Shown: piece after piece, positions 23,944 to 64,000 of the stretch
How positions within the stretch are numbered: the first letter of the stretch is position 1
How the letters are laid out: each line of letters starts with the position of its first letter
Source of the DNA: an uncultured Flavobacteriales bacterium
Lineage (GTDB): Bacteria > Bacteroidota > Bacteroidia > Flavobacteriales > UBA1820
NCBI GenBank assembly: GCA_902478645.1
Contig: CABSLV010000004.1
Coordinates: 24,411-88,410 of the forward strand
DNA length: 64,000 nucleotides
Direction of reading: 5' to 3'
Position numbers and translations under genes: made by a program
The notes under the pieces: generated by a model
Database searches by the model: none
What the model was told of the DNA's origin: nothing
What the model saw: only the letters and a program-made list of their open reading frames with translations

Positions 23944-25377
23944 TTAGAAGCCTATGTTCATCGAACCCTCGGCCAGACGGTCGGCATCCCGCTCGGTAAC
24001 GATGCGGTCGTATTCGCCCTCGGGGTCTTCGGAAAGGCCCGCCAGACGCACCGCCGTACGCTGGGAGATGAGTTCCCGCCCGCCGTTGGCCAGATTGAGT
24101 GCCTGGATCATCGCCGAACGGTCGTCCACCATGAAAGGCTCGATGCGCTGGCTCACCTCGATCTGGTCGATGTAGGGTTCGAGTGCATTGTTGAGCACCC
24201 CCAGGTAGCGGCGTATCAGGTTCATGCGGCGTTCGAGGTACTGCCCGAAGAGCTCGCCCTTGTTCTGCACCTTCAGGTGCGCATCCAGGAAGAGCATCCG
24301 CAGGGCCACCCCGGACAGATTGGCCAGCCCCTTGACCGAATCGAACGAAATGTCGGGCGTCTGGGTCGTGCTGTAAATCATGCTGAGCAAGGTACTGATC
24401 TCCAGCCGGACGGACTCCGGAGCCTGTTGCCACGAAAGGTACTGCGCCGTCGAATTGGCCTCGCCTTCGATGATCGCCCCGGTCTCCCCTTTGCGGGCAA
24501 ACCCGCGGATCTCGCCCGTCACGAAGATCTTGGGCGAAGCGTGGTAATCGTTCGTATCGGCAAAATTGGACAACAGTTTTTCCAAACGCTCGATCAGAGG
24601 CTGCACATCGGCCCACTCGCTCTTTTCCTGCCGGCCGTACACCACCGGGATCTTTCCCAGGATGTTTTCCCTGCGCTCCACCAGCGCCCACGAACCCTTC
24701 TCCTGACGCTCGAAGCGCACGATCTCCTGGTCCGTGTAGGTCTCGAAATACTCTTTCTCCACCCCCGTCTCCACCGTGGCATACCGCCGGGAAAACGCCG
24801 TCATGTCGCCGTAGTGGTCGAACAGGGGGAACAGTCCGTCCTCTTGCGAGGGCGACAGCAGGGAAACGCGCAACTTGTACTGCGAAGGCGTCTGCCCCAC
24901 GAATGAAAAGCGCTCGTTGCGGCCCACACGTGCCCAAAACCCGTTCTCGGGCACCGGATACCACAGCTCGGCCGCTTCCGTCTCCCAAAGGATGGTACGG
25001 GCCAGACGGCGGTTGAGCGAGTCGATCTTGTTGTCGGTCAAGGTGCGCCGTACCGCCTCGAAAGCGCCCGCCTGTCCATCGCTGTCCGTGGCACAGGTTA
25101 CCTGTACCGGATGGCCGAACAGAAAAGCCACTGCCCGCTCCACGATGACCCGCTGGAGCGGCAACGCGATGCGGGCTACCTTTTCAAAACGCTCGATCTG
25201 TCCGTCCGTTCCCCGAACCGCTTTGTCGGGACGCTCCGAGATGTCGAATATCCGATGTCCGCGCGGGTCGTACTGTTGGCGCAATCGGGTGATCTGCGGC
25301 TGCGGCGTGGCGCGCCGGCTCAAGGCTTCGACCCATTCGTTGGCCGAGGTGCCTTGCACGAGGTCTTCTATTTTCAT
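23944..25377 (-). CDS. Phage portal protein homolog (SPP1 gp6-like), orphan
   Basis: 477 aa from MKIEDLVQGTS at 25377. Segment-by-segment resemblance to SPP1 gp6. Examples: NRRLARTILWETEAAELWYPV; GKIPVVYGRQEKSEWADVQPLIERLEKLLSNFADTNDY; ALRMLFLDAHLKVQNK; and a C-terminal LISQRTAVRLAGLSEDPEGEYDRIVTE. Confidence 0.78.
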   Translation of the reverse strand: MKIEDLVQGTSANEWVEALSRRATPQPQITRLRQQYDPRGHRIFDISERPDKAVRGTDGQIERFEKVARIALPLQRVIVERAVAFLFGHPVQVTCATDSDGQAGAFEAVRRTLTDNKIDSLNRRLARTILWETEAAELWYPVPENGFWARVGRNERFSFVGQTPSQYKLRVSLLSPSQEDGLFPLFDHYGDMTAFSRRYATVETGVEKEYFETYTDQEIVRFERQEKGSWALVERRENILGKIPVVYGRQEKSEWADVQPLIERLEKLLSNFADTNDYHASPKIFVTGEIRGFARKGETGAIIEGEANSTAQYLSWQQAPESVRLEISTLLSMIYSTTQTPDISFDSVKGLANLSGVALRMLFLDAHLKVQNKGELFGQYLERRMNLIRRYLGVLNNALEPYIDQIEVSQRIEPFMVDDRSAMIQALNLANGGRELISQRTAVRLAGLSEDPEGEYDRIVTERDADRLAEGSMNIGF

Positions 25378-25433
25378 TTCTTTTCGAGTTTGATTTGTTT
25401 TCGTTCCGACGGACAAAAGACCGCCTTTTCTCA

Positions 25434-25465
25434 CAAATATAATCAAAAAAGAAATAAAATCCAAA
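25434..25465 (-). promoter_or_regulatory. Bacteroidota-type promoter for the portal homolog
   Basis: On the minus strand, TTTG (25462-25465), a 20-nt spacer, then TATATTTG (25434-25441). It lies about 55 nt upstream of the ATG at 25377. Confidence 0.65.
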
Positions 25466-25527
25466 TACCTCTCCTCATGACAAAACTCCATCGACCCGCA
25501 ACACACTGCCACGCCCCGAAAAACCCC

Positions 25528-27283: not shown

Positions 27284-27353
27284 GGAAATAACAACTGAGG
27301 GGGCTGGTGGCTTCCGTTTGGGAATCTTGACGAGAAACCCTCTCCTTTCTCCC

Positions 27354-27414
27354 ATATCTCCCCAAGCGGGCGAGGGCGGGCCTTTGGCCCGCCCTCGCCC
27401 GCTTGGGGAGATAT
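27354..27414. terminator. Perfect 29-bp-stem palindrome, probable bidirectional terminator
   Basis: atatctccccaagcgggcgagggcgggcc-ttt-ggcccgccctcgcccgcttggggagatat. Lies between convergent galE and the AAE transporter gene. Confidence 0.6.
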
Positions 27415-27430
27415 GGAATCTAAAAAAATC

Positions 27431-29316: not shown

Positions 29317-30156
29317 CTACTTCGCCTTTTCGGCCATCTCCCGGAAATAATTGTCGAAGAAGACCAAATGATACTTTACCGAATTGGTCCAATACGACCA
29401 GCTGTGGCTCCCCGGACGGGAGATGAAATCGTGATCGATCCGGCGGTATCTCATCAACTCGTGCAAACGTTCGTTCACCGGATAGAAAGAATCGCTCGTC
29501 CCGCAGTCGAACAGGATCTTCAGACTGCCGGGTTTGAGCAGATACAACTGGTTCATGATGCTGTACTGTGCCCACCGCTCGGGATACTCCGCCTGTGAAC
29601 CCAACTTTTTTTCCATGTTTTCATTGGCCGGGAACGACTGTATGTCCAGTCCTCCGCTCATCGAGGCGCAGGCACCATAAAGATCCTGATGGCGGAACGA
29701 CAGGTAAAATGCACCCTGTCCGCCCATCGAGAGTCCCGTAATGCCACGCCCCTCCCGCGAGGCGATCGTACGGTAATGCTGGTCGATGTAGGGCAGCAGT
29801 TCGCGCGTCATGTAGGTCTCGTACCGGCTGGTGGAGTCAGCCGGAGCGTCCCAGTACCAGCTGTAAGGATTTCCGTCGGGACAAACGATGATCATGCCGT
29901 AACGCGAGGCGAGTTCCGGCAGGAAAGGCGCTTTCTTGATCCAGTTGGTATAGTCGCCCGTAGCACCGTGCAACAGATACACCACCGGAAAACGGGCGTC
30001 CTTGTCCGTTTGATACGCAGCCGGAGTAATGACCACGTTCTTGATGTTCTTCTTCATCGAAGCGCTCCACACGGCGACCGTGTCCACCGATTGCGCTTCC
30101 GCTGCGCCGCAAAGCACTGCAGCCAGGATAACAAAAAGCGATTTGAAGTGTTTCAT
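29317..30156 (-). CDS. Secreted esterase (putative esterase/CE1-like alpha/beta hydrolase)
   Basis: Signal peptide MKHFKSLFVILAAVLCGAAEAQ, VVYLLHG and the GLSMGG nucleophile elbow. Start trimmed to 30156. Confidence 0.75.
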   Translation of the reverse strand: MKHFKSLFVILAAVLCGAAEAQSVDTVAVWSASMKKNIKNVVITPAAYQTDKDARFPVVYLLHGATGDYTNWIKKAPFLPELASRYGMIIVCPDGNPYSWYWDAPADSTSRYETYMTRELLPYIDQHYRTIASREGRGITGLSMGGQGAFYLSFRHQDLYGACASMSGGLDIQSFPANENMEKKLGSQAEYPERWAQYSIMNQLYLLKPGSLKILFDCGTSDSFYPVNERLHELMRYRRIDHDFISRPGSHSWSYWTNSVKYHLVFFDNYFREMAEKAK

Positions 30157-30493
30157 TGTATATGTCCCTATTTTTTGATACGATCCTCTCTTTCCTACCG
30201 GCCGGAAAACTGTTTTTCCCTTCGAAAACACCAGGCTTGAAGAACACCACCGGCTCACGCAAACCCGAAAAACAAAAGTAACGAATTCCTCCCAAAAAGC
30301 CTGCCCATTCTTCTCAATTTCGACAAATCCACCCTCCTATCGTCCAACCGCCACATCCGGATTCCTCCAAACATTCGATGCGCGCAACCCTCTCCTGCAT
30401 GGATTCAGACAGCTTTTTTTCTTACAAAAGGAAAAAACACAAAAACATTTTGCCATTTCAATTAAAATACACAACTTGCAGACATACAAAAAG

Positions 30494-30658
30494 ATGAATC
30501 CATATCAATTATTCCCCAATATTTATTTTATCATGAAAACAAGCGCAAAACTCCTGCGAAGGATTTCCTATTCCCCTCCTACGGCCACACTGGTCGAGGT
30601 AACCGTCGAGAGAGGCTTTGCCGTCTCTCTGCCGGATGACACTGTCAATCCTTGGTAA
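30494..30658 (+). CDS. Micro-ORF 1 (54 aa), paralog of micro-ORF 2
   Basis: MNPYQLFPNIYFIMKTSAKLLRRISYSPPTATLVEVTVERGFAVSLPDDTVNPW. The last 27 aa plus stop are identical to micro-ORF 2 despite 7 nucleotide differences, all synonymous. The track ORF starts at an upstream TTG (30476). Confidence 0.55.
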   Translation: MNPYQLFPNIYFIMKTSAKLLRRISYSPPTATLVEVTVERGFAVSLPDDTVNPW

Positions 30659-30689
30659 AATTGCACACACCTCCACGAACACGATAAAA

Positions 30690-30843
30690 AAACGTCCGTT
30701 TATTATGGCAAAGATATAATAAAATATCTTAAAGTAGCTAAAATTGCATTAAAATTAGCGACAAGCAAGTATGGACATTGTTTTGTCGTTTTGTTTTTGG
30801 AAAGCCCCCCATGTTTATTCTTATCCGAAATAAACGGACGTTT
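30690..30843. promoter_or_regulatory. Candidate invertible promoter (inverton): perfect 15-bp inverted repeats flanking a 124-bp AT-rich segment
   Basis: IR-L is aaacgtccgtttatt (30690-30704). IR-R is aataaacggacgttt (30829-30843). They are exact reverse complements. The internal segment carries a consensus -7 box TATCTTTG on the minus strand (30709-30716). That box points away from the downstream genes in this assembly. Confidence 0.5.
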
Positions 30844-30851
30844 AACCCATC

Positions 30852-31016
30852 ATGTCTAATAACCCTTACACTAAATTTGTCATGCAACACAAACATCTAA
30901 CTTTCCGACACAACAAAATCGAGACTTACACTCCTCCGACCGCCACACTGGTCGAAGTAACAGTCGAGAGAGGCTTTGCCGTCTCGCTGCCGGACGACAC
31001 GGTCAATCCTTGGTAA
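30852..31016 (+). CDS. Micro-ORF 2 (54 aa), paralog of micro-ORF 1
   Basis: Hand translated; it is below the track length cut-off. MSNNPYTKFVMQHKHLTFRHNKIETYTPPTATLVEVTVERGFAVSLPDDTVNPW. An in-frame TAA lies 2 codons upstream of the ATG. The stop is 19 nt before the lipoprotein ATG. Confidence 0.6.
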   Translation: MSNNPYTKFVMQHKHLTFRHNKIETYTPPTATLVEVTVERGFAVSLPDDTVNPW

Positions 31017-31035
31017 CCCTTATCCCACGAACACG

Positions 31036-34000
31036 ATGAAAAAACTATGCTTTCTGTTGAGTCTGGCTACGATCGTCGGACTCGGCTCCTGCTCGCGGGA
31101 TTTCAGCGAGACCGATCCTACTCCCTCGGCACAGGGAACCCACTCCCTGAAAGCCTCCATCGCGCAAAGCGAACCCACCACCCGCACCGGCTTGGGCGAC
31201 AAAGACGAAGAAAACGGTACAACGCCCTTGTTGTGGGTAGCAGGTGACAAAATCGCCGTAGTCGACGACGCAGAACCCAATACCGTACACCAGTACATCC
31301 TCGACCCTGCTGCCGCCGGACAGACCGAAGGCACGTTTACCGTCAGCGAAGGGGATGGCGTCCAGGGCGCTGCTTCCATCACGGCGTACTACCCTTATAC
31401 GTTCTATTCGGCTTCGCAGGGGTTGTCCGTGCCCGCCACCCAACAGTACAAGGAGGGACGGACGATGGAAACCGACATGCTCCCCATGTACGCCCATTCT
31501 TCCGGGGCGGAAGTGGGCGAGTTGGACTTCCATCCCGTTGCCGGGCTGATCAACCTGCAACTGACCAAAAACGACAAACTGAACGAAAGCCGTCTGTTCT
31601 ACTCCGTCAAACTGGTTTCCTCCGAGGATAACCTCGCCGGGAAAGGTTCCCTCGCCGACGACAGCGAAGGATACAAGGTGCTGACCATCGACGGGGACGA
31701 TGCCTCGAAAGAGATCACCTTCTCTTTGGGCGAAAGCGGTTTAGCCCTCAAGGAAGGCGAAATCACCTCCCTAATGTTCGTCGTACCGGCCAAAACGTAT
31801 AGTGCCTCCACGTTGAAGTTCGTCCTCACGTACAAAAACAGCCCGGACGATGCCGACTTCCAGACCATCGACCTACCCGTCCGCTCGGCGGTAGAAGTAC
31901 AGCGCGGACATATCGTCAATTTTGCAGCCACCGATGTCGGCCTGTTGATTTCAGGCATCGCTCCTGAAGAGGTAAAAGAAGTCATTACCGACGCAGCCAC
32001 CTCCGGTGAGTCCGAGATCCCGCAAGTGATCGAAGTGGTGGGCATGGATGCCGGCGGGGAATATACCATCGAGCTCCCCACGGTGTACAATGAAACGAAA
32101 AATCAGGAAACCATCTCGTTGGTAGCTACCGACGTTGCGGCCGGAGCTACCATCCTTGTGCAGGAGACTGCCGCCACGGGGATCGCTCCCCAGCAGTATG
32201 TGAGCCTCGCCAATGCCACCGACAACTCCTGCAACGTAGCCGTCGAACTGCCCAACTCGACCGTCACCCTCGACGGCACGTTCGACAACGTGGAAGCTAC
32301 CACCGCCGACCAGACGCTCATCATCCCCTCGGGGACCGTCGTGCAGAACCTGACGGTCAAACAAGGCTCGGTCAAGATCTACGGTACGGTCAAGAACCTG
32401 ACTACCGCCTCCGGCTGGAGCGGAGAGATCGTTCGCGGGATTTCCTCCCAGGAATGCTTCGACAAAGCCATGGAAAACGACGCCTCGATCAACTATACGT
32501 TCGACTACGCTCTGATCGACCGCCCCATCCCGAACCTCGACGGAAAGGGAAAAACGCTGGCGCTCCCGCTGAAAGTCTCGGCCGACGCAACCATTTCCAA
32601 CCTCACCATCCGTCCTTCGGAGTCCATCGAGGCCAACGGCATCACCATCCTTCAGGACAGCGTCGATCTGTCGCTCAACGGAGTGGACATCTACGTTTCC
32701 TCCAACAACTCCTCCGCCGGGCTGAACACCGGACTGCTGATCGCCGAAGTGAACAACGTTACGGCCACCTTGAAGGATTGCCACATCGTCGTGCCCAAGA
32801 GCTACCAGCGCGGTATCAACATGCATAGCGCAAAAACCGCCGGTACGACCACCGTTACCCTGGACAACACCCACATCGGACCTACGCTCGAACCCCTGAC
32901 CACGGATTACAGCCACGACACCTACACCCAGGAACAGATCGACGCGTTCAAAGCCCGCGTGGACAGCCGGGGTGTCAGCTTCGGCGGACCGCACAGCGCC
33001 CGCTACGTGCTGAACCTGCGGAACGGTTCGGTGATCGAAGGAGTATTCTACGCCATCAACTTCACGTACTACGCCGCTCCGGTAGAGATCAACGTGGATC
33101 GTTCGATCATCGACGGTCGCTGCGCCTTCAACATCTGGGCCAACGGCGAAGGAACGAAGATCAACGTAACGAACGGCTCGAAACTGGTGGGACGCAACTA
33201 CTTCCCCGGTCCGACAGAGGTTTATGCCAATATCGTCATCGAAAGCAAAGCCAACGGACAGGCAGCCGAGAACAACGTCATCACCGTGCGCGACAGCGAA
33301 TTCCACTGCTTCAACGAACCGCAAACCAATACCAACTGGCAATACGCGCTCGATGTCCGCTCCGAAGGGGTCAACACCATCCAGCTGCTGGGTGAGACCA
33401 AGATATACGACCACAGCGGACGCCTTCCCCATGCCATCGATGTCGGAGGCTGGAGCAACCAGTTTGTCATCGACCCGAGCGTATCCTTCGCCATGGGCAT
33501 GGAAGGAGCGACCATCCTGCCGACACACATCTGGGACGGTTCTTCGTTCAAATTCCCCGGGAAAGCCCTGGACGGCAAATACTACATCGGCGAGCCTTCC
33601 CAGCTGGCCGCACTCACCCTGCAGGTCCCCGAAGGGATGGACATCGTCCTGGTACGCGACCTGGACCTGAACAACCATCCTTGGCTGGCCAAATATCCCA
33701 CTTCCGGCACTAAAGCCAATACGGTGGACGGCGGCGGCCATACCATCTACAACCTCAACACCGGTACGGTCGGATGGGATACCAAGACGGAATGTCCGGG
33801 ACTGTTCTCGGCCTTTGCCGGTACGATCAAGGATCTCACGATAGAGAATGCTACCGTGTACGGTTCCCGGGCAGGTGCTCTCGCCGGCCGACTGGACTAC
33901 GGCACGATCACCAATTGCCACGTGAAGAACGTTACCTTTATCGGAGGAGCACAAAAGATGGCTGGCTTGATCGGCTTTATCAACGGAAACGGTGACATCG

Positions 34001-34440
34001 TTCTGGACGGTTGCTCGGTCGACGGATGCCTGATAGTCAACGACCCTGCCCCGAAAGGCGACGATGGTGCTGCCATAACCGGCGATGCATCGTGCATGGC
34101 CGGAGGATTGGTCGGATTCATCCAGTCTTTCAACCACAAGGTGGACATCCGGAATTGTTCCGTGAAAAACACGACTGTGCAGAGCGGTCTGCTTTGGGAC
34201 AACTATTCGGGATGCACTTCGCACGAATTCATCGGCAACATCGCCAACACCTACAAATACCCCAATGCGGTGTTTACGCTGACCAACAACACCATTGAAG
34301 GTTCCTCGTGCGATGCAAAAGTCCGCATGAACGACTATTTCGGATTCTGCTATACGGGCGAATCCGGACAGACCGATCCTTACGCCCGGGTAGTGGTCGA
34401 CGGAGAGGTTATCACCGAAGGCCCGGCCGCCGGCGAATAA
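31036..34440 (+). CDS. Large surface lipoprotein: fimbrillin-like N-domain, beta-helix-like middle, C-terminal GLUG repeats
   Basis: Lipobox MKKLCFLLSLATIVGLGSC. N-domain pattern WVAGDKIAVV...TAYYPY...LDFHPVAGLINLQL, typical of Bacteroidales fimbrillin/Mfa-like lipoproteins. C-terminal repeats AGALAGRL, MAGLIGFI and MAGGLVGFI...IRNCSV match the GLUG motif. Start trimmed from 30976 to 31036. Confidence 0.8.
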   Translation: MKKLCFLLSLATIVGLGSCSRDFSETDPTPSAQGTHSLKASIAQSEPTTRTGLGDKDEENGTTPLLWVAGDKIAVVDDAEPNTVHQYILDPAAAGQTEGTFTVSEGDGVQGAASITAYYPYTFYSASQGLSVPATQQYKEGRTMETDMLPMYAHSSGAEVGELDFHPVAGLINLQLTKNDKLNESRLFYSVKLVSSEDNLAGKGSLADDSEGYKVLTIDGDDASKEITFSLGESGLALKEGEITSLMFVVPAKTYSASTLKFVLTYKNSPDDADFQTIDLPVRSAVEVQRGHIVNFAATDVGLLISGIAPEEVKEVITDAATSGESEIPQVIEVVGMDAGGEYTIELPTVYNETKNQETISLVATDVAAGATILVQETAATGIAPQQYVSLANATDNSCNVAVELPNSTVTLDGTFDNVEATTADQTLIIPSGTVVQNLTVKQGSVKIYGTVKNLTTASGWSGEIVRGISSQECFDKAMENDASINYTFDYALIDRPIPNLDGKGKTLALPLKVSADATISNLTIRPSESIEANGITILQDSVDLSLNGVDIYVSSNNSSAGLNTGLLIAEVNNVTATLKDCHIVVPKSYQRGINMHSAKTAGTTTVTLDNTHIGPTLEPLTTDYSHDTYTQEQIDAFKARVDSRGVSFGGPHSARYVLNLRNGSVIEGVFYAINFTYYAAPVEINVDRSIIDGRCAFNIWANGEGTKINVTNGSKLVGRNYFPGPTEVYANIVIESKANGQAAENNVITVRDSEFHCFNEPQTNTNWQYALDVRSEGVNTIQLLGETKIYDHSGRLPHAIDVGGWSNQFVIDPSVSFAMGMEGATILPTHIWDGSSFKFPGKALDGKYYIGEPSQLAALTLQVPEGMDIVLVRDLDLNNHPWLAKYPTSGTKANTVDGGGHTIYNLNTGTVGWDTKTECPGLFSAFAGTIKDLTIENATVYGSRAGALAGRLDYGTITNCHVKNVTFIGGAQKMAGLIGFINGNGDIVLDGCSVDGCLIVNDPAPKGDDGAAITGDASCMAGGLVGFIQSFNHKVDIRNCSVKNTTVQSGLLWDNYSGCTSHEFIGNIANTYKYPNAVFTLTNNTIEGSSCDAKVRMNDYFGFCYTGESGQTDPYARVVVDGEVITEGPAAGE

Positions 34441-34506: not shown

Positions 34507-34551
34507 GCACAAAAAAAGCCTTGCAACCCTTTCGCTGCAAGGCCTTGTCCG

Positions 34552-34636
34552 TACTCGGGATGGGACTCGAACCCACACGGACATTTCTGTCCAAAGGATT
34601 TTAAGTCCTTCGTGTCTACCATTTCACCACCCGAGC
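34552..34636 (-). tRNA. tRNA-Leu (anticodon UAA)
   Basis: Minus strand GCTCGGGTGGTGAAATGGTAGACACGAAGGACTTAAAATCCTTTGGACAGAAATGTCCGTGTGGGTTCGAGTCCCATCCCGAGTA. Cloverleaf with a long variable arm and anticodon loop CTTAAAA. A TACCTTTG -7 box lies at 34662-34669 on the minus strand. Confidence 0.92.
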
Positions 34637-34809
34637 ATCCGCCCGGAAAAAACGAGCAGGGCAAAGGTAAAGATTTTTTGCCATTTCGCCGTTATCCGAA
34701 TGCTCTTCTCCGAAGCCATTCGCACAAAAGCACAGAAAATCAAGAGAAAAAGGATATCCATCCGGATTCTTTTCAGTAGATTTGTACATTCTAGTAACAC
34801 TTCCCTGCC

Positions 34810-35853
34810 ATGATACGAAAGATCACATTCCCTGTCCTTGCCTTGGGCGGCTTGCTATTCATCCTTCTGTCCGGGTTCGCCCCTTTTCCTCAAAACGAAC
34901 AGAGCGAAGCAACGACCTCGGAGATCGCTCCGGAAGAAGACTCCACCGTATCCGTCATTGCCTGGTTTTGCAAAGGAGACACGATGACCTACTGGATCCA
35001 TGACGGTCAGTGGAAAGTCGTCGGAGGGGATACGATCCAAACTCTCGGCGTCCACACCAAGGTGATGCTCACCGTAACAGATTCCTCTTCGAAAGGCTAC
35101 GCGCTGGAATACCGTTTTTTGGAATTCGACTTTGACCCGATCGAAGGTTCCGAGACCCAAAACATCGTGAATCTCGCCGCAAGCCAGCTCCAGAAAGACA
35201 TCGTGGGTACCGTCATCCGATTCCACACCGATGAAGTAGGGCAGATCACAAAATACGAAAACCTCAAAGAAGTCAAAAAACAGGCCAAGGACCTTTTTTC
35301 CAATTTCGTACAGCAAATGCCGTACATCGACTCTTTGGCGGCAGACGGGATAAAGATAGAACCACTGCTCAAAAAGATCGGTTCCAGCGACCTGCTGATA
35401 GACGGATACGTCGAGGAACTCGAGATGCTCTTCCGATGCCATGGGAACCAATACCCCATCGGGGAATTCACCGAGCATCAGGATGCCACAGAGACGGAAT
35501 ACGCCTCCGACACGTATATGGCGGTAGGGATGGATCCGGAAACCTACGAATACGACCTCCGGATCGACGTCGACAACTACATCCCGAAAGAAGACCTCAA
35601 AAGCCTTGTCGGTGACTTGGCCGACCTGTTGCTGGACAAGGACGCAGCGCAGGAGGCCAAGAAGGAAATCGCGACCGAATTCGACCAACAGATCCAGAAC
35701 GATGCGGTGTACGGCTCCTATCTGCACGCAAAATACTTCCCCGACGGATGGCCCGAAGACATCATTTATCAGGAGAAAACCTTACTGGAGGGACAAGGAA
35801 AACTGACGCAGAAATACATCACGTGGGATTACCGGAGCGTGGGCAATTTTTAA
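34810..35853 (+). CDS. Hypothetical membrane-anchored/secreted protein
   Basis: 347 aa, N-terminal hydrophobic anchor, acidic soluble body. No family recognised. A TAGATTTG -7 box lies at 34777-34784. Confidence 0.6.
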   Translation: MIRKITFPVLALGGLLFILLSGFAPFPQNEQSEATTSEIAPEEDSTVSVIAWFCKGDTMTYWIHDGQWKVVGGDTIQTLGVHTKVMLTVTDSSSKGYALEYRFLEFDFDPIEGSETQNIVNLAASQLQKDIVGTVIRFHTDEVGQITKYENLKEVKKQAKDLFSNFVQQMPYIDSLAADGIKIEPLLKKIGSSDLLIDGYVEELEMLFRCHGNQYPIGEFTEHQDATETEYASDTYMAVGMDPETYEYDLRIDVDNYIPKEDLKSLVGDLADLLLDKDAAQEAKKEIATEFDQQIQNDAVYGSYLHAKYFPDGWPEDIIYQEKTLLEGQGKLTQKYITWDYRSVGNF

Positions 35854-57131: not shown

Positions 57132-57265
57132 GTTCTCAGCATCGTTCACGACGGCGCCCCTCTCCCAGATACTCCCGACAAAAAGTCCGTTTTTCCCCCA
57201 ACCTTTCCTTTGAGGAGGAAAATTAATCGTTACATTTGTTTTCAGGATCAAAAAAACGACAGACG

Positions 57266-60871: not shown

Positions 60872-60917
60872 TGCCGGGAAAGGGGCATAAAAAAGCCGCA
60901 CCCCGATGGGGTGCGGC
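60872..60917. repeat. 46-bp direct repeat, copy 1 (contains a terminator hairpin)
   Basis: tgccgggaaaggggcataaaaaagccgcaccccgatggggtgcggc is identical to 61599-61644. The hairpin gccgcacccc-gat-ggggtgcggc is preceded by A6, so it reads as a terminator on the minus strand after the 140-aa ORF. Confidence 0.9.
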
Positions 60918-60940
60918 TCTACTGCCGGGCAGAAAAGTCC

Positions 60941-61363
60941 TCACAGCTTCTTGCGGCGGGACTGCGCGGCATACAAAGCCGACAACTCGTCGAACTCTTT
61001 GTGCAAGGCCGCTAATCTCTCCGGATCCTTTTCAATAATACAAGCTGAACGCATATATGATTTTTTTACAATGATATTCTGTATATCAAACCTGTGGATA
61101 ATTTTCATCCCAGTCATAATCATAACCCGCGATAATGCATTCAACTCATTGCTCCAAAATGCACCTCGTTGACTGTTTTCTGCCCTATCCATCACAGTAT
61201 CTGCTTTTGTTAGAAAGCGTTCTATTTCCTCTTTAGAAATAGGTAATTTCCCCCCCTCTAAGATCCGATGAGCGGTATCGCATAAGAGAGTCAAGGCCGG
61301 TTCGAAATCGTTTGCATCGACCAATTCATCGACCTTTTTGTACAAAGAAGTAAAATCTATCAT
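60941..61363 (-). CDS. Hypothetical protein (140 aa), compositionally chimeric ORF
   Basis: ATG at 61363. No family recognised. The 5' roughly 340 nt are AT-rich, while the last 70-80 nt (encoding ...LHKEFDELSALYAAQSRRKKL) are host-like GC-rich. Confidence 0.5.
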   Translation of the reverse strand: MIDFTSLYKKVDELVDANDFEPALTLLCDTAHRILEGGKLPISKEEIERFLTKADTVMDRAENSQRGAFWSNELNALSRVMIMTGMKIIHRFDIQNIIVKKSYMRSACIIEKDPERLAALHKEFDELSALYAAQSRRKKL

Positions 61364-61401
61364 GGCTTTATCGGTTTTATGGTGTTAAACATGGTTCACG
61401 G

Positions 61402-61598
61402 TTACATTTCCAATCGCATCACCCGCTGAGGTTTTGTCCATTTATCTCTATTAGGCACGTATATCTGGAGGAGGCCGCCCTCGGTCCGGTAGATGCCGTT
61501 CTGGATTGGAGCGATTTCGCTCTCAAAGATAGGGATTCCCTCCTTGAGCTCTTCCTGTTTCGGCGTAATTTTGTAGATATAGTATTGCCGGGCCCGGC
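61402..61598 (-). pseudogene. Start-less ORF fragment (probable gene remnant)
   Basis: The reading frame ...ARQYYIYKITPKQEELKEGIPIFESEIAPIQNGIYRTEGGLLQIYVPNRDKWTKPQRVMRLEM has no ATG/GTG/TTG until near its end. The track ORF gets its start (TTG 61662) only by reading through repeat copy 2 and its terminator hairpin. Confidence 0.45.
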
Positions 61599-61644
61599 TG
61601 CCGGGAAAGGGGCATAAAAAAGCCGCACCCCGATGGGGTGCGGC
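61599..61644. repeat. 46-bp direct repeat, copy 2 (contains a terminator hairpin)
   Basis: Identical to 60872-60917. Flanked by A-runs on both sides. It lies directly downstream of the stop of the 61666-61884 ORF on the minus strand. Confidence 0.9.
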
Positions 61645-61665
61645 AAAAAAATAGAAGAACAATGC

Positions 61666-61884
61666 TTACATAGGTTTGGGATATTCTGCCAAAAATTCCC
61701 GCTTGAAATCCTCCCATAGCGAAAAACTCTCGCGCAACACCGCCTCCAACTCGTCGTAATCGCCGAAAAAAGGATAAAGCGGTACTTGTTCCCGAGGAAC
61801 ATTCATCAACAATCCATACAATCCCATCCATATCCTCGATAAGGGACGTACTAATTTTTTATCACGAAATACAGCCCAAATCAA
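61666..61884 (-). CDS. Hypothetical small protein (72 aa from TTG, or 53 aa from the ATG at 61827)
   Basis: Open frame ending ...DYDELEAVLRESFSLWEDFKREFLAEYPKPM. No family recognised. Followed by a terminator hairpin. Confidence 0.35.
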   Translation of the reverse strand: MIWAVFRDKKLVRPLSRIWMGLYGLLMNVPREQVPLYPFFGDYDELEAVLRESFSLWEDFKREFLAEYPKPM

Positions 61885-62002
61885 TTCTACCTGACCATAT
61901 TCAAGTGCTATATTAAATTTGGGTAATTATATACAAGTTTACACCAACACATTTTTGTTTGTGTATTTTTTTACTATATTTGTGTCGTGATCGAATTTAA
62001 TT

Positions 62003-62911
62003 ATGAAAGACTTCAATTCATTAATAGAGTTATTCATAGCTTTCCCGGATGAACAAAGTTGCATTAATCATTTGGAACGACTTCGTTGGAATGGAATTGT
62101 TGTTAGTCCATTTGATCCTACATCGAAAGTCTATAAATGCAAATATAACAAATATAGATGCAAAAACACAGGGAAATATTTCAATGTCAAGACGAATACT
62201 CTTTTTGATAGCTCAAAAATTGAACTAAGAAAGTGGTTTGCTGCTATATGGCTTGTTACATCCCACAAAAAAGGTATTTCCTCTTTACAGTTAAGTAGAG
62301 ATATAGATGTAACACAGAAGACAGCATGGTTTATGCTTCAACGTATTCGTAATTGTTTTGGAATAGAAAACAACGATAAACTTAGCAACACCGTTGAAGT
62401 TGATGAAACCTATATAGGAGGAAAAAACAAGAATAGACACACTAACAAGAGAGTAACAGGTTCACAAGGGCGCAGCGTAAAAGACAAATCACCTGTTCTT
62501 GGAATGGTGGAGCGAAAAGGGAAACTTGTAGCAAAAGTTGTGAAGAATACAAGCGGAGGTATATTAACTCCACAGATCATTAATTTTGTTAAAGATGCTC
62601 TTATATATACCGATGAATGGTGGGGATACAATTCTATCAAAAAGTTGTTCAAACACAGCTATGTCAATCACCGATCTAATGAATATGTAAGAGGAGATGT
62701 ATATACAAATACTATTGAAGGTTTTTGGTCGATTCTAAAACGAGGAATTATAGGTATCTACCACTTTACATCAAAACAACACTTGCAACGTTACGTGGAT
62801 GAGTTTGTTTTCAGATACAACACAAGAAAACATACGGATGGAGAGAGATTTAATCTTCTGATCAGAAACAATGAACATCGTTTAACTTATAAAGAATTGA
62901 TATATGGATAA
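62003..62911 (+). mobile_element. IS1595-family (ISXO2-like) transposase gene
   Basis: 302 aa. The N-terminal zinc-ribbon region (CINHLERLRWNG...YKCKYNKYRCKN...) is followed by a DDE_Tnp_IS1595-like core (VEVDETYIGGK...IYTDEWWGYN...NTIEGFWSILKR). Very AT-rich relative to the backbone. TATATTTG box at 61975-61982. IS ends not identified. Confidence 0.8.
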
Positions 62912-63851
62912 TAGAGTAAGAAATCGTGGAGAGTTGGATTTAGCAGGGATAAAAATACCTTGTTATGTTCTTGAAGATGGAACAAGAGTATTGTCAGGAA
63001 GAGGAATGCAAGAAGCTCTAAATATGGTTGATGATAATGGAAAAACATCGGGCCATAGGATATTGAGATATTTGAGTCAAAAAACACTTAAACCATTTAT
63101 TTTCAAGGATAAAGGGTTGGGCCACTTTAATCCATTAACTTGTTATGATGGAAATAAGAAAATAAACGGTTATGAGGCTACCGTATTAGTTGATATATGT
63201 GATGCTTTTTTAGAGGCAAGAAAACACATAAAACTATCATCAAGGCAGGCTATTATTGCTGACCAATGTGAAATACTCGTTAGGGCGTTTGCTCGATTAG
63301 GTATAATCGCCCTTGTCGATGAGGCAACAGGATACCAAAATGAAAGGGAGCATCTTGAACTTCAAAAGATATTAAGTGCATATATATCCGATGAAATTCT
63401 AAAATGGCAACTTACATTTACGGATGATTTCTATCGCGAGATATATCGCTTATGGGGACTTCCTTTTATTCCTAAATATATTCGACAAAAGCCTTCATTT
63501 ATTGGGAAGCTTACACGTAAATATATATATGAAGAATTACCTAAAGGTGTGGTCGAAAAGATACAAGAAAAAGTAGAGAAAACTGAAAAAGGAAACTGGA
63601 AATACAAGTGGCACCAAACCCTTACCCCAGAAATTGGTCGAGAACATTTGAAACGTCAAATTATTGAGGTTACAACACTGATGTCAATATCTCAATCAAA
63701 GGAACAGTTTGATGCTTTATTCCAACAAAAGTATCATAAGGTTGTACAACTGGAAATGGAGTTCAATGAAGTAGTTGAAGAGCCTAAAACATATGATTTC
63801 GATACAAAATTGATGATTGCATTATCATCCAATCCCCATAGAAAGGAATAA
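62904..63851 (+). CDS. P63C-domain protein
   Basis: 315 aa. The pattern IPCYVLEDGTRVLSGRGMQEAL...GYEATVLVDICDAFLEAR...IIALVDEATGYQ...FYREIYRLWG is typical of phage/Bro-associated P63C domain proteins (from memory). 8-nt overlap (ATGGATAA) with the transposase gene. Confidence 0.7.
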   Translation: MDNRVRNRGELDLAGIKIPCYVLEDGTRVLSGRGMQEALNMVDDNGKTSGHRILRYLSQKTLKPFIFKDKGLGHFNPLTCYDGNKKINGYEATVLVDICDAFLEARKHIKLSSRQAIIADQCEILVRAFARLGIIALVDEATGYQNEREHLELQKILSAYISDEILKWQLTFTDDFYREIYRLWGLPFIPKYIRQKPSFIGKLTRKYIYEELPKGVVEKIQEKVEKTEKGNWKYKWHQTLTPEIGREHLKRQIIEVTTLMSISQSKEQFDALFQQKYHKVVQLEMEFNEVVEEPKTYDFDTKLMIALSSNPHRKE

Positions 63852-64000
63852 CTGGATGAATGTAATTATATATGTAAGAAAACACATCTTCCACGATTTG
63901 TATTATACATATAAAATCTTCATTCTTCATATCTTCATGGAATAGAAATATTTTTGTAATACAAAAACAACTAATAAATTTGCTACATGAACTGGAACAA

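What the first reader, a model, noticed from the sequence alone, without database searches (positions are those of the whole stretch)
30690..30843. Candidate phase-variable invertible promoter between the micro-ORFs, apparently in the OFF orientation
A perfect 15-bp inverted repeat flanks a 124-bp AT-rich segment: aaacgtccgtttatt at 30690-30704 and aataaacggacgttt at 30829-30843. A perfect 15-mer IR this close together is not expected by chance. The only consensus Bacteroides -7 box in the segment is TATCTTTG, with a TTAG -33-like element 21 nt upstream. It lies on the minus strand at 30709-30716, 4 nt from IR-L, and fires away from micro-ORF 2 and the lipoprotein. After inversion it would sit at about 30817-30824 on the plus strand, roughly 28 nt upstream of the micro-ORF 2 ATG. 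The IR core AAACGTCCGT is one mismatch from the ARACGTWCGT core I recall for Mpi-dependent invertons of B. fragilis surface loci. No recombinase gene lies in the window, so a trans-acting invertase would be required.
Basis: partly seen in the sequence, partly recalled or inferred. Interest (0 to 1): 0.8.

Follow-up and report, generated by a model that had tools for sequence, protein, structure and literature searches.

The report
Invertible promoter switch for surface lipoprotein
A 124-bp stretch of DNA flanked by 15-bp inverted repeats really does flip in wild gut populations of an uncultured Bacteroidota bacterium, most likely turning a large surface lipoprotein on and off; this is a well-known kind of switch, found here in a lineage where none has been described.

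Summary
The perfect 15-bp inverted repeat (30690-30704 / 30829-30843) is real and rare (about 0.04 expected per window).

Decisive evidence: in about 31 independent public assemblies of the same locus, the 124-bp interior occurs in the window orientation about 20 times and exactly reverse-complemented 11 times. The breakpoints are always at the repeat boundaries, and the interiors are identical. Orientation shows no phylogenetic signal (at least 7 flips among 27 strains), so this is a fast reversible switch.

The segment carries one Bacteroidota -7 box (TATCTTTG). In the window it points away from micro-ORF 2 and the lipoprotein (OFF). In flipped assemblies it points at them. On the other strand there is a terminator-like hairpin with a U-tract.

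The repeat matches the published Mpi-type (serine master invertase) repeat of Bacteroides at 10/11 positions, or 12/14 against the merged B. fragilis + B. intestinalis repeat. The window holds no recombinase gene, so the invertase must act in trans.

The host is the uncultured gut lineage Flavobacteriales UBA1820 / Ca. Merdimorpha, not Bacteroides. Some strains lack the cassette entirely.

Promoter activity, ON/OFF assignment and the invertase are inferred, not shown. Verdict: a new member of a known kind; moderate interest.

The parts
30690..30704 (+). IR-L, AAACGTCCGTTTATT. It contains an internal perfect dyad AAACG-TC-CGTTT and is the putative crossover site.
   Evidence: Invariant in 33 of 34 copies from other assemblies. 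Orientation junctions fall at its inner edge.
30705..30828 (.). Invertible interior, 124 bp and 26% GC. The window holds it in the 'W' state.
   Evidence: About 20 distinct assemblies carry it as in the window and 11 carry it reverse-complemented (122-123/124 identity to the reverse complement, about 72/140 in the same orientation).
30829..30843 (-). IR-R, the reverse complement of IR-L.
   Evidence: 35 of 35 copies invariant in the window-type lineage; L002 has 2 changes in the outer arm.
30709..30716 (-). Bacteroidota -7 promoter box TATCTTTG (consensus TAnnTTTG). It points leftwards in the window and rightwards, towards micro-ORF 2 and the lipoprotein, after inversion.
   Evidence: In the diverged relative L002 it is TATATTTG: all consensus positions kept, only a free position changed. 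TAnnTTTG is enriched upstream of same-strand genes in this window, 12/37 against 2.7 +/- 1.6. The consensus is cited in PMC4747536.
30738..30741 (-). -33-like TTAG (within TTTTAG), 21 nt upstream of the -7 box. A weak match to TTTG.
   Evidence: This zone is poorly conserved in L002 (8/11).
30757..30798 (+). Terminator-like hairpin (30757-30790) followed by the U-tract TTTTGTTTTT (30789-30798). In the window state it faces rightward transcription coming from micro-ORF 1.
   Evidence: RNA fold -11.9 kcal/mol, z = -2.7; the opposite strand gives only -6.0. U-tract 10/10 and stem retained in L002. The simple terminator scan did not call it. Its function is inferred.
30533..30658 (+). Micro-ORF 1 (41 aa; an alternative start at 30494 gives 54 aa).
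   Evidence: The C-terminal 27 aa are identical to micro-ORF 2 despite 7 synonymous differences.
30575..30693 (+). Direct repeat, copy 1: the micro-ORF 3' part, a spacer and a pseudo-start (ATA here, ATG in all other strains) followed by AAAAAAC. It ends where IR-L begins.
   Evidence: Copy 2 is at 30933-31045.
30882..31016 (+). Micro-ORF 2 (44 aa from the conserved ATG). First gene downstream of the switch.
   Evidence: protein P0012 is listed in 493 blocks of the collection.
30933..31045 (+). Direct repeat, copy 2, running into the real lipoprotein start ATGAAAAAAC.
31036..34440 (+). 1134-aa lipoprotein (signal peptide with a lipobox Cys, GLUG motifs, probable parallel beta-helix). The presumed regulated gene.
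34551..34636 (-). tRNA-Leu on the opposite strand. It marks the end of the unit the switch can control; the next gene, starting at 34810, has its own -7 box at 34777.
29317..30156 (-). Divergent esterase gene with its own -7 box (TACTTTTG, 30273-30280, minus strand). It lies on the side the switch promoter faces in the window state.

Best explanation
This is an invertible promoter (an inverton). A site-specific recombinase encoded elsewhere in the genome recombines the two 15-bp inverted repeats and flips the 124-bp segment between them. The enzyme is most likely an Mpi-like serine 'master' invertase, which would cut at the asymmetric centre TC of the dyad AAACG-TC-CGTTT. The segment carries a Bacteroidota-type promoter at one end and, on the opposite strand, a terminator-like hairpin with a U-tract.

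In the window's orientation the promoter fires leftwards, away from micro-ORF 2 and the lipoprotein, and the hairpin faces any read-through from micro-ORF 1. The lipoprotein is therefore OFF. After inversion the promoter sits 4 nt from IR-R, transcription would start in or near IR-R, and micro-ORF 2 plus the 1134-aa surface lipoprotein are ON. The unit ends before the opposite-strand tRNA-Leu.

Shown here: the inversion, its exact boundaries, its recurrence, and the absence of a local recombinase. Inferred: promoter and terminator activity, the ON/OFF assignment, and the class and identity of the invertase.
For: Inversion: the interior is reverse-complemented, with collinear flanks, in L003, L010, L011, L013, L017, L019, L037-L040 and L042. 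It has the window orientation in about 20 other distinct contigs. Junctions are always ...CGTCCGTTTATT|ATGG (window state) or |TCGG (flipped). The contigs come from different assemblers and studies, and two have long-read-style names (L036, 250 kb, window state; L037, 411 kb, flipped).

Both states occur in both genomic contexts. Opposite states occur in near-identical flank haplotypes, 12-23 SNPs per 2.3 kb, with identical interiors. At least 7 changes are needed on a 27-strain tree, indistinguishable from shuffled labels at 8.3 +/- 1.1.

Promoter: there is a single perfect TAnnTTTG in the segment. Its consensus positions are conserved in the diverged L002 inverton (7/8, differing at a free position), while filler sequence is 6/14. 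The motif predicts gene starts in this genome. The geometry matches B. intestinalis Mpi-type invertons, where the TSS maps inside the proximal IR.

IR class: 10/11 to ARACGTTCGTN and 12/14 to the merged ARACGTTCGTTTAA. The dyad has a 2-bp centre.

Trans-acting enzyme: no Resolvase, Recombinase or Phage_integrase domain in any gene-sized ORF of the 64 kb, nor in the 8.6 kb upstream in the other context. Master invertases acting on distant sites are established in B. fragilis.

Terminator.
Against: No transcript data, so promoter activity and the OFF assignment rest on consensus and geometry. The -33 element is weak (TTAG) and poorly conserved. A fixed perfect -7 box (TAAATTTG, 30872) just before micro-ORF 2 could give orientation-independent expression in this lineage, though it lacks a -33 element and is absent from L002. 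The hairpin is only moderately stable and the terminator scan did not call it. Only two diverged inverton types were available for comparison. No invertase gene and no second site with the same IR were found, since the rest of the genome could not be searched. The dyad can also be read as 6-bp arms around a 6-bp spacer (AAAAAA-CGTCCG-TTTATT), which would fit a tyrosine recombinase. The centre is TC, not the TT of the published Mpi consensus.
Confidence: 0.8

Rival explanations
1. The segment inverts, but its main regulatory output is not a promoter for the lipoprotein. It could act as an orientation-dependent terminator or insulator for read-through from micro-ORF 1. Or, in the window state, it could drive an antisense RNA across micro-ORF 1 or extra transcription towards the divergent esterase.
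For: Hairpin plus U-tract on the strand opposite the promoter. In the window state the -7 box faces micro-ORF 1 (antisense) and the esterase. In L002-type strains the inverton lies only about 190 nt from the esterase start. A terminator-like site on the minus strand at 30558-30544 would end such an antisense RNA. No-cassette alleles express the lipoprotein, if at all, from upstream of the single micro-ORF.
Against: The esterase has its own conserved -7 box. L002-type strains have no micro-ORF 1, so read-through control cannot be the ancestral role. The consensus positions of the -7 box are what is best conserved next to the IR. The two roles do not exclude each other.
Confidence: 0.12
2. The recombinase is a tyrosine recombinase (Tsr-like) acting in trans, not an Mpi-like serine invertase.
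For: The dyad also fits A/T-rich arms around a 6-bp spacer CGTCCG. B. fragilis has tyrosine master invertases (Tsr0667, Tsr19) that act on distant promoters, including one in front of a lipoprotein cluster.
Against: The IR matches the published Mpi-type repeat at 10/11 and 12/14. Tyrosine invertases are usually encoded beside at least one of their sites, and none lies within 30 kb on either side.
Confidence: 0.25
3. The two orientations are old, fixed structural alleles of different strains (a one-off inversion), not an active phase-variable switch.
For: All the evidence comes from consensus assemblies, one orientation per contig. No read-level heterogeneity within a single sample was shown directly.
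Against: At least 7 independent changes on the strain tree and no phylogenetic signal. Interiors are identical in both states. Both states occur in both genomic contexts. Several contigs end inside or at the segment (L014, L015, L045), and one MAG has an N-gap exactly from IR to IR while a contig with identical flanks shows the flipped state.
Confidence: 0.04
4. Chance inverted repeat, assembly artefact, or terminal inverted repeats of a small non-autonomous transposon (MITE).
For: The region is AT-rich, where repeats arise more easily. A 15-mer IR is expected a few times per genome by chance (0.04 per 64 kb).
Against: Exact reciprocal inversion in many assemblies made with k-mers far longer than 15 nt, and apparently with long reads, cannot be an artefact. 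There is no target-site duplication and no other copy in the 64 kb. The IRs are conserved in a relative whose interior has diverged to 94/130. No Rfam family matches.
Confidence: 0.01

Closest known systems
Mpi-controlled invertible promoters of Bacteroides capsular polysaccharide loci (B. fragilis PSA-PSH and other Mpi targets; B. intestinalis PVR7-12)
   Same: A short AT-rich promoter segment between perfect short IRs. The IR sequences are closely similar (ARACGTTCGTN / GTTCGTTTAA against AAACGTCCGTTTATT). The -7 box TAnnTTTG lies next to one IR, so the TSS falls in or near the proximal IR. The invertase acts in trans from a distant gene. The target is a surface structure.
   Different: The interior is 124 bp, not about 183-186 bp. 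The centre of the dyad is TC, not TT. The regulated unit is a micro-ORF plus one beta-helix lipoprotein, not a CPS operon with UpxY/UpxZ. The host is an uncultured Flavobacteriales-affiliated gut lineage, not Bacteroidales. No mpi homologue has been identified.
Tsr19 (BF2766) invertible promoters IVp-I / IVp-II of B. fragilis
   Same: An invertible promoter with a TAnnTTTG box. [quoted passage not shown]
   Different: That enzyme is a tyrosine recombinase encoded next to one of its sites. Here no recombinase lies within about 30 kb, and the IR resembles the Mpi type.
fimS switch of E. coli type 1 fimbriae (FimB/FimE)
   Same: A single promoter on a short invertible segment bounded by short IRs, giving ON/OFF control of a surface structure (my own knowledge).
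   Different: fimS is 314 bp with 9-bp IRs and adjacent tyrosine recombinase genes, uses a sigma-70 promoter, and belongs to another phylum.
Clostridioides difficile cwpV / flgB switches
   Same: The orientation of a short invertible segment in a 5' region decides whether transcription proceeds into the gene. For cwpV this works through a terminator that forms in one orientation (my own knowledge; the flgB switch paper PMC5386303 was listed but not read).
   Different: Those segments lie downstream of a fixed promoter and carry none of their own. Here a promoter box is on the segment, and the terminator role is only inferred.

Membership tests
Invertible promoter (inverton) | A pair of inverted repeats bounds a short intergenic segment | tested here: met
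   Perfect 15-nt IRs, 124 nt apart; 0.04 expected by chance per window.
Invertible promoter (inverton) | Both orientations exist in nature, with breakpoints at the repeats | tested here: met
   11 flipped against about 20 window-state distinct contigs; junctions exactly at the IR edges; at least 7 independent changes.
Invertible promoter (inverton) | Both orientations coexist within one clonal population or sample (phase variation proper) | not testable with these tools
   No raw reads were available. Indirect hints only: contigs breaking in the segment (L014, L015, L045) and an IR-to-IR N-gap in MAG L046, while L003, with identical flanks, is flipped.
Invertible promoter (inverton) | The segment carries a promoter that drives the adjacent gene in one orientation only | tested here: inconclusive
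   A single perfect TAnnTTTG, with consensus positions conserved in L002 and correct geometry after flipping; the motif predicts gene starts here. No TSS or expression data. A fixed second box lies at 30872.
Invertible promoter (inverton) | A cognate site-specific recombinase | not testable with these tools
   None in the 64-kb window or in 8.6 kb of the alternative context. The rest of the genome could not be searched.
Mpi-type (serine master invertase) inverton of Bacteroides | IR matches the published consensus ARACGTTCGTN | tested here: inconclusive
   10 of 11 positions match; the mismatch (T to C) is in the central dinucleotide. 12/14 to the merged B. fragilis + B. intestinalis repeat. 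Close, but not an exact match.
Mpi-type (serine master invertase) inverton of Bacteroides | An mpi-family serine recombinase gene in the genome that inverts the site | not testable with these tools
   Genome-wide search was not possible. None in the window.
Mpi-type (serine master invertase) inverton of Bacteroides | Several loci in one genome share the IR (a regulon of the master invertase) | tested here: not met
   Within the sequence available, no other pair was found: only one lone 1-mismatch hit of the 12-nt core, at 57181. This covers 64 kb, not the whole genome, so it is a weak negative.
Mpi-type (serine master invertase) inverton of Bacteroides | The downstream operon is a capsular polysaccharide locus beginning with upxY/upxZ | tested here: not met
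   Downstream are a 44-aa micro-ORF and a GLUG / beta-helix lipoprotein. Mpi also flips non-PS regions in B. fragilis (13 regions, 7 of them PS), so this feature is typical, not strictly defining.
Local tyrosine-recombinase switch (fimS/FimBE, Tsr-adjacent invertons) | Recombinase gene adjacent to the invertible segment | tested here: not met
   No Phage_integrase-domain protein in the window or in L046 upstream.
MITE / small transposon | Terminal IRs with a target-site duplication and multiple dispersed copies | tested here: not met
   Flanks AAAAA|...|AACCC show no duplication; single copy in 64 kb.

The most novel reading that the evidence does not exclude
The element is a compact dual-function cassette, with a promoter on one strand and a terminator on the other. 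It is flipped by an Mpi-family serine master invertase operating outside the Bacteroidales. The cassette itself is gained and lost in the population by recombination between the duplicated micro-ORF / lipoprotein-start repeats. One species would then maintain three heritable regimes for the same beta-helix surface lipoprotein: no switch, switch ON and switch OFF. A conserved 41-44-aa peptide is co-expressed, and its role is unknown.
Probability: 0.25. Interest if true: 0.55.

Novelty: new member of a known kind. Interest (0 to 1): 0.4.

Why it matters
Invertible promoters are a main way gut Bacteroidota vary their surfaces, and that variation affects immune evasion, phage resistance and colonisation. 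This case extends an Mpi-type repeat and promoter architecture to an uncultured human-gut lineage (UBA1820 / Ca. Merdimorpha) that is barely mentioned in the literature.

It also shows that orientation polymorphism can be demonstrated from public assemblies alone. And it provides natural controls: strains with no cassette, and one candidate locked allele. Together these make the function of the lipoprotein and of the conserved micro-peptide testable in metagenomic and metatranscriptomic data.

It does not change the concept. A specialist would expect such switches in this phylum.

Tried and rejected
- **Mpi consensus string.** Exact-string literature searches for ARACGTWCGT and ACGTWCGT found nothing. 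Coyne 2003 (PMC193581) and Jiang 2019 (tried as PMC6543533) are not held. The supplements of the hCom2 inverton paper contain no matching IR strings. The consensus was finally obtained second-hand from PMC8375218.
- **Metagenome and genome scans.** Scans using the lipoprotein N-terminus as query returned only 4 and 2 loci. Exact-protein look-ups of the micro-ORFs were far more productive.
- **More diverged relatives.** P0003 turned out to be a no-cassette allele. The two P0018 contigs stop about 84 nt upstream of the micro-ORF, so they could not show whether an inverton exists there.
- **Extra core hit in L004.** It was dismissed because that 1.85x contig is unrelated to the window beyond about nt 2770 and is probably chimeric.
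- **Sigma-70 promoter scan.** It found nothing and does not apply to this phylum.
- **Rfam.** No hit.
- **Micro-ORF function.** No Pfam or NCBIfam family, and only 3 relatives among 1.8 billion representatives.
- **Lipoprotein fold.** The AlphaFold model is poor (mean pLDDT 57; the N-terminal 306 residues are below 50), and Foldseek hits are weak (best E 3e-4, TM 0.1-0.2). All hits are parallel beta-helix proteins, so this gives a fold class only.
- **First gene call.** My first greedy ORF selection picked antisense ORFs and was replaced by a codon-usage-scored set.

Full report
**1. The observation**

The sequence is as described. AAACGTCCGTTTATT occupies 30690-30704 and its exact reverse complement occupies 30829-30843, enclosing 124 nt. 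With mismatches the repeat extends to 25 nt at 84%. In 100 dinucleotide-preserving shuffles of the 64-kb window, a perfect inverted 15-mer with a 20-1000-nt spacer turned up 0.04 times per shuffle. The only other real one is a 65-nt palindrome at 27352-27416. The interior is about 26% GC in a 57% GC window. The -7 box TATCTTTG lies on the minus strand at 30709-30716, 4 nt from IR-L, with TTAG 21 nt upstream, as stated.

**2. Context**

The 880-nt intergenic region lies between a divergent esterase gene (29317-30156, minus strand, PF00756) and a 1134-aa lipoprotein gene (31036-34440, plus strand, GLUG motif). It holds two paralogous micro-ORFs. Their conserved starts are at 30533 (41 aa) and 30882 (44 aa). 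Their last 27 codons encode identical peptides despite 7 nucleotide differences. Across all fetched copies, 17 of 27 variable sites are at third codon positions.

The 3' part of micro-ORF 1, its trailing spacer and a pseudo-start (ATA here, ATG in every other strain) followed by AAAAAAC duplicate the sequence that runs from micro-ORF 2 into the real lipoprotein start. IR-L begins exactly where this duplication ends.

A tRNA-Leu on the opposite strand (34551-34636) and a separate -7 box at 34777 show that whatever the segment controls ends with the lipoprotein.

**3. The decisive test: orientation in other assemblies**

I fetched the locus from public assemblies in two ways, neither of which depends on the IR. 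One used the lipoprotein N-terminus as a query. The other used exact look-ups of the micro-ORF proteins.

Among about 31 distinct contigs with a complete segment, about 20 have the window orientation and 11 have the interior exactly reverse-complemented. The flipped ones are L003, L010, L011, L013, L017, L019, L037, L038, L039, L040 and L042. Their identity to the reverse complement is 122-123 of 124, against about 72/140 in the same orientation. In every case the flanks are collinear and the switch occurs at the inner edge of the 15-nt repeats...CGTCCGTTTATT|ATGG or |TCGG.

The contigs come from different studies and assemblers. Two have long-read-style names (L037, 411 kb, flipped; L036, 250 kb, window state). 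A 15-nt repeat cannot mislead assemblers that use k-mers of 100 or more.

Both states occur in both genomic contexts. These contexts are strains with the esterase next to micro-ORF 1, and strains with about 5.8 kb carrying a BcrAD/DUF2229 gene inserted between them.

**4. Active switch or fixed alleles?**

I aligned 2.3 kb of right flank from 28 loci. Opposite orientations occur in closely related haplotypes (12-23 SNPs), while the interiors are identical. On a neighbour-joining tree of the 27 loci whose orientation is known (L046, N-gapped, left out), at least 7 orientation changes are required. Shuffled labels need 8.3 +/- 1.1, and 21% of shuffles need 7 or fewer. Orientation therefore has no detectable phylogenetic signal, which is what a fast reversible switch predicts.

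There are indirect hints of within-sample heterogeneity. Three contigs begin inside the segment (L014, L015, L045). In the UBA1820 MAG (L046) the stretch from IR-L to IR-R is a 46-N gap, while contig L003, with identical flanks, shows the flipped state. The gap could instead be masking by the tool, although its length (46, not 124) looks like a scaffold gap. I could not examine reads.

**5. What the segment carries**

The Bacteroidota -7 consensus TAnnTTTG (cited in PMC4747536) occurs 37 times in the window. It is enriched upstream of same-strand genes, 12 of 37 against 2.7 +/- 1.6 for random positions, so this promoter grammar applies in this organism.

The segment has exactly one perfect box. 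In a diverged relative (L002: interior 94/130 identical, no micro-ORF 1) the box is TATATTTG. All consensus positions are kept and only a free position has changed. IR-L is 15/15, and the filler at 30800-30813 is only 6/14. The -33-like element is weak and poorly conserved.

On the opposite strand there is a hairpin (30757-30790) followed by TTTTGTTTTT. Its folding energy is -11.9 kcal/mol (z = -2.7), against -6.0 for the other strand. The stem and the U-tract (10/10) persist in L002. The simple terminator scan did not call it.

My reading of the two states is as follows. In the window state the promoter points left and the hairpin faces read-through from micro-ORF 1. In the flipped state the promoter sits 4 nt from IR-R and points at micro-ORF 2 (58 nt to its conserved ATG) and the lipoprotein.

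One caveat: a fixed perfect box (TAAATTTG, 30872-30879) lies 2 nt before that ATG. It has no -33 element and is absent from L002.

**6. The recombination site and the enzyme**

Each repeat contains a perfect dyad, AAACG-TC-CGTTT. The arms keep matching outwards, 7 of 8 positions at IR-L and 6 of 6 at IR-R. Two symmetric arms around an asymmetric 2-bp centre is how serine-invertase crossover sites are built (established knowledge for Hin/Gin-type enzymes). A reading with a 6-bp spacer, which would fit a tyrosine recombinase, cannot be excluded.

However, Shkoporov et al. 2021 (PMC8375218) quote ARACGTTCGTN for B. fragilis Mpi sites. They also report 183-186-bp CPS promoter segments in B. intestinalis flanked by GTTCGTTTAA, with the TSS inside the proximal repeat. 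This IR matches these at 10/11 and 8/10, and the merged repeat at 12/14. One of the two differences is in the central dinucleotide.

Pfam scans of every gene-sized ORF in the window found no Resolvase, Recombinase or Phage_integrase domain. None was found in 8.6 kb upstream in the other context either. The only mobile-element genes are an IS1595 DDE transposase and a P63C protein in an AT-rich tail at 62-64 kb, plus an orphan phage portal gene.

The enzyme must therefore act in trans. There is precedent: B. fragilis has three master invertases that act on distant sites. No second site with the same core exists in the 64 kb. The rest of the genome was out of reach.

**7. Organism and regulated gene**

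The closest reference genomes are 'Flavobacteriales bacterium UBA1820' and 'Candidatus Merdimorpha stercoravium'. NCBI files the latter under Flavobacteriales incertae sedis. The common micro-ORF 2 allele is listed in 493 blocks of the assembly collection, including human-gut metagenome assemblies. UBA1820 appears in only three held papers, none of them about phase variation.

The lipoprotein family is narrow, with 7 clusters, and has no PDB relative by sequence. It carries GLUG motifs and a weak pectate-lyase-like adhesive-domain match. A low-confidence AlphaFold model (mean pLDDT 57; residues 310-1050 mostly 70-90) gives only weak Foldseek hits. All of them are right-handed parallel beta-helix proteins: PL6 lyases, phage tailspikes, and the autotransporter passengers EspP and Fap2. 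A surface beta-helix adhesin or glycan-binding protein is a reasonable guess, but weakly supported.

**8. Structural polymorphism of the cassette**

Five contigs have a single micro-ORF directly before the lipoprotein, with no IRs at all: L004, L028, L032, L033 and L047. L028 lies on a 159-kb contig.

L002-type strains have the inverton but no micro-ORF 1. There IR-L is preceded by CTGAAAAAAC, which shares TGAAAAAAC with the lipoprotein start. I infer that the window-type arrangement arose by joining a 'simple' allele to an 'inverton' allele at this 9-nt microhomology. Recombination between the resulting direct repeats can then delete the cassette again.

L035 has a 1-nt deletion in the centre of IR-L, which makes it a candidate locked allele. 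L006 and L009 keep IR-R and about 30 nt of flipped-state interior, including the -7 box, and then continue into AT-rich foreign DNA.

**9. Comparison and verdict**

In its workings and in its repeat sequence, the element is closest to the Mpi-type invertible promoters of Bacteroides. I do not file it as a proven member. The consensus match is 10/11. The downstream genes are not a CPS operon. No mpi homologue and no multi-site regulon could be tested.

As an inverton in the general sense, the structural criteria are met, and natural inversion is shown at the level of consensus assemblies. Promoter function is well supported but not demonstrated.

This is a new member of a known kind in an undescribed host lineage. 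Interest is moderate (0.4): unsurprising to a specialist, but solidly verified, and it comes with useful natural controls.

Noticed in passing
window 30533-30658 and 30882-31016: Two paralogous micro-ORFs (41 and 44 aa) share an identical C-terminal 27 aa (PPTATLVEVTVERGFAVSLPDDTVNPW) despite 7 synonymous differences. Across strains, 17 of 27 variable sites are at codon position 3. The family is tiny: 7 clusters among 5.8 billion proteins and 3 hits among 1.8 billion representatives. There is no Pfam or NCBIfam match, and the function is unknown.
   Followed up: partly
window 30575-30693 vs 30933-31045; loci L004, L028, L032, L033, L047, L002: The cassette (micro-ORF 1 3' end, pseudo-start, inverton, micro-ORF 2 5' end) is present or absent between strains. 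Five contigs have one micro-ORF directly before the lipoprotein and no IRs. L002-type strains have the inverton but no micro-ORF 1. The 9-nt microhomology TGAAAAAAC between the lipoprotein start and the IR-L flank suggests how the duplication arose.
   Followed up: partly
L035:2805-2830 (ERZ27280910 k141_281921): IR-L has a 1-nt deletion in the central dinucleotide (AAACGTCGTTTATT). This is a candidate naturally locked allele in the window orientation, or an assembly error.
   Followed up: no
L006 and L009, about 2850-2962: IR-R plus about 30 nt of flipped-state interior (including TATCTTTG) is joined to AT-rich foreign DNA encoding two ORFs of 215 and 308 aa with no Pfam hit. This is either an insertion into the segment or a rearrangement.
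   Followed up: no
L046:8619-8664; L045:1; L014:1; L015:1: In the UBA1820 MAG the stretch exactly between the two IRs is 46 N, while contig L003 has identical flanks and shows the flipped state. Three other contigs begin inside the segment. This is consistent with assemblers failing on mixed orientations, but the N run could also be masking by the tool.
   Followed up: partly
window 30872-30879 (+): A perfect -7 box, TAAATTTG, lies outside the segment, 2 nt before the conserved micro-ORF 2 ATG. It has no -33 element and is not conserved in L002. It could give orientation-independent, leaderless or internal transcription.
   Followed up: partly
window 30685-30720 and the flipped state (e.g. L013): The pseudo-start before IR-L is an intact ATG in 33 of 34 other copies. 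It opens an 11-codon ORF in the window state (MKKRPFIMAKI) and a 48-codon ORF in the flipped state. Probably a relic of the duplication, but it is orientation-dependent.
   Followed up: no
window 30544-30558 (-): A terminator-like site on the minus strand, inside the micro-ORF 1 coding region. It would end a leftward (antisense) transcript from the segment's promoter in the window state.
   Followed up: no
L046:2817-7916 vs window about 30157-30500: Strains differ by an indel of about 5.8 kb between the esterase and micro-ORF 1. It carries a 1406-aa BcrAD_BadFG/DUF2229 protein and a 292-aa ORF.
   Followed up: partly
window 23944-25512 (-): An orphan SPP1-type phage portal protein gene (PF05133, E = 1e-45) sits between the trigger factor gene and galE, with no other phage genes nearby.
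   Followed up: no
window 60900-64000: An AT-rich tail with atypical codon usage carries an IS1595 / ISXO2-like DDE transposase (62003-62911) and a P63C-domain protein (62904-63851). Probably foreign or mobile DNA.
   Followed up: no
window 27352-27416: A long perfect palindrome: inverted 15-mer seeds run across 27352-27416, giving arms of about 23 nt. It lies between galE and the convergent transporter gene and is probably a bidirectional terminator.
   Followed up: no
P0019 (6979 aa, not in the window): A giant protein contains 5 stretches that match residues 19-38 of the micro-ORF peptide, hinting that the peptide resembles a repeat unit of large surface proteins.
   Followed up: no
L048:1-90 and L049:1-90: In a more distant species (micro-ORF 65% identical), two independent contigs both start about 84 nt upstream of the micro-ORF, right at a TATCTTTA box. 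This could be another assembly break at an inverton.
   Followed up: no
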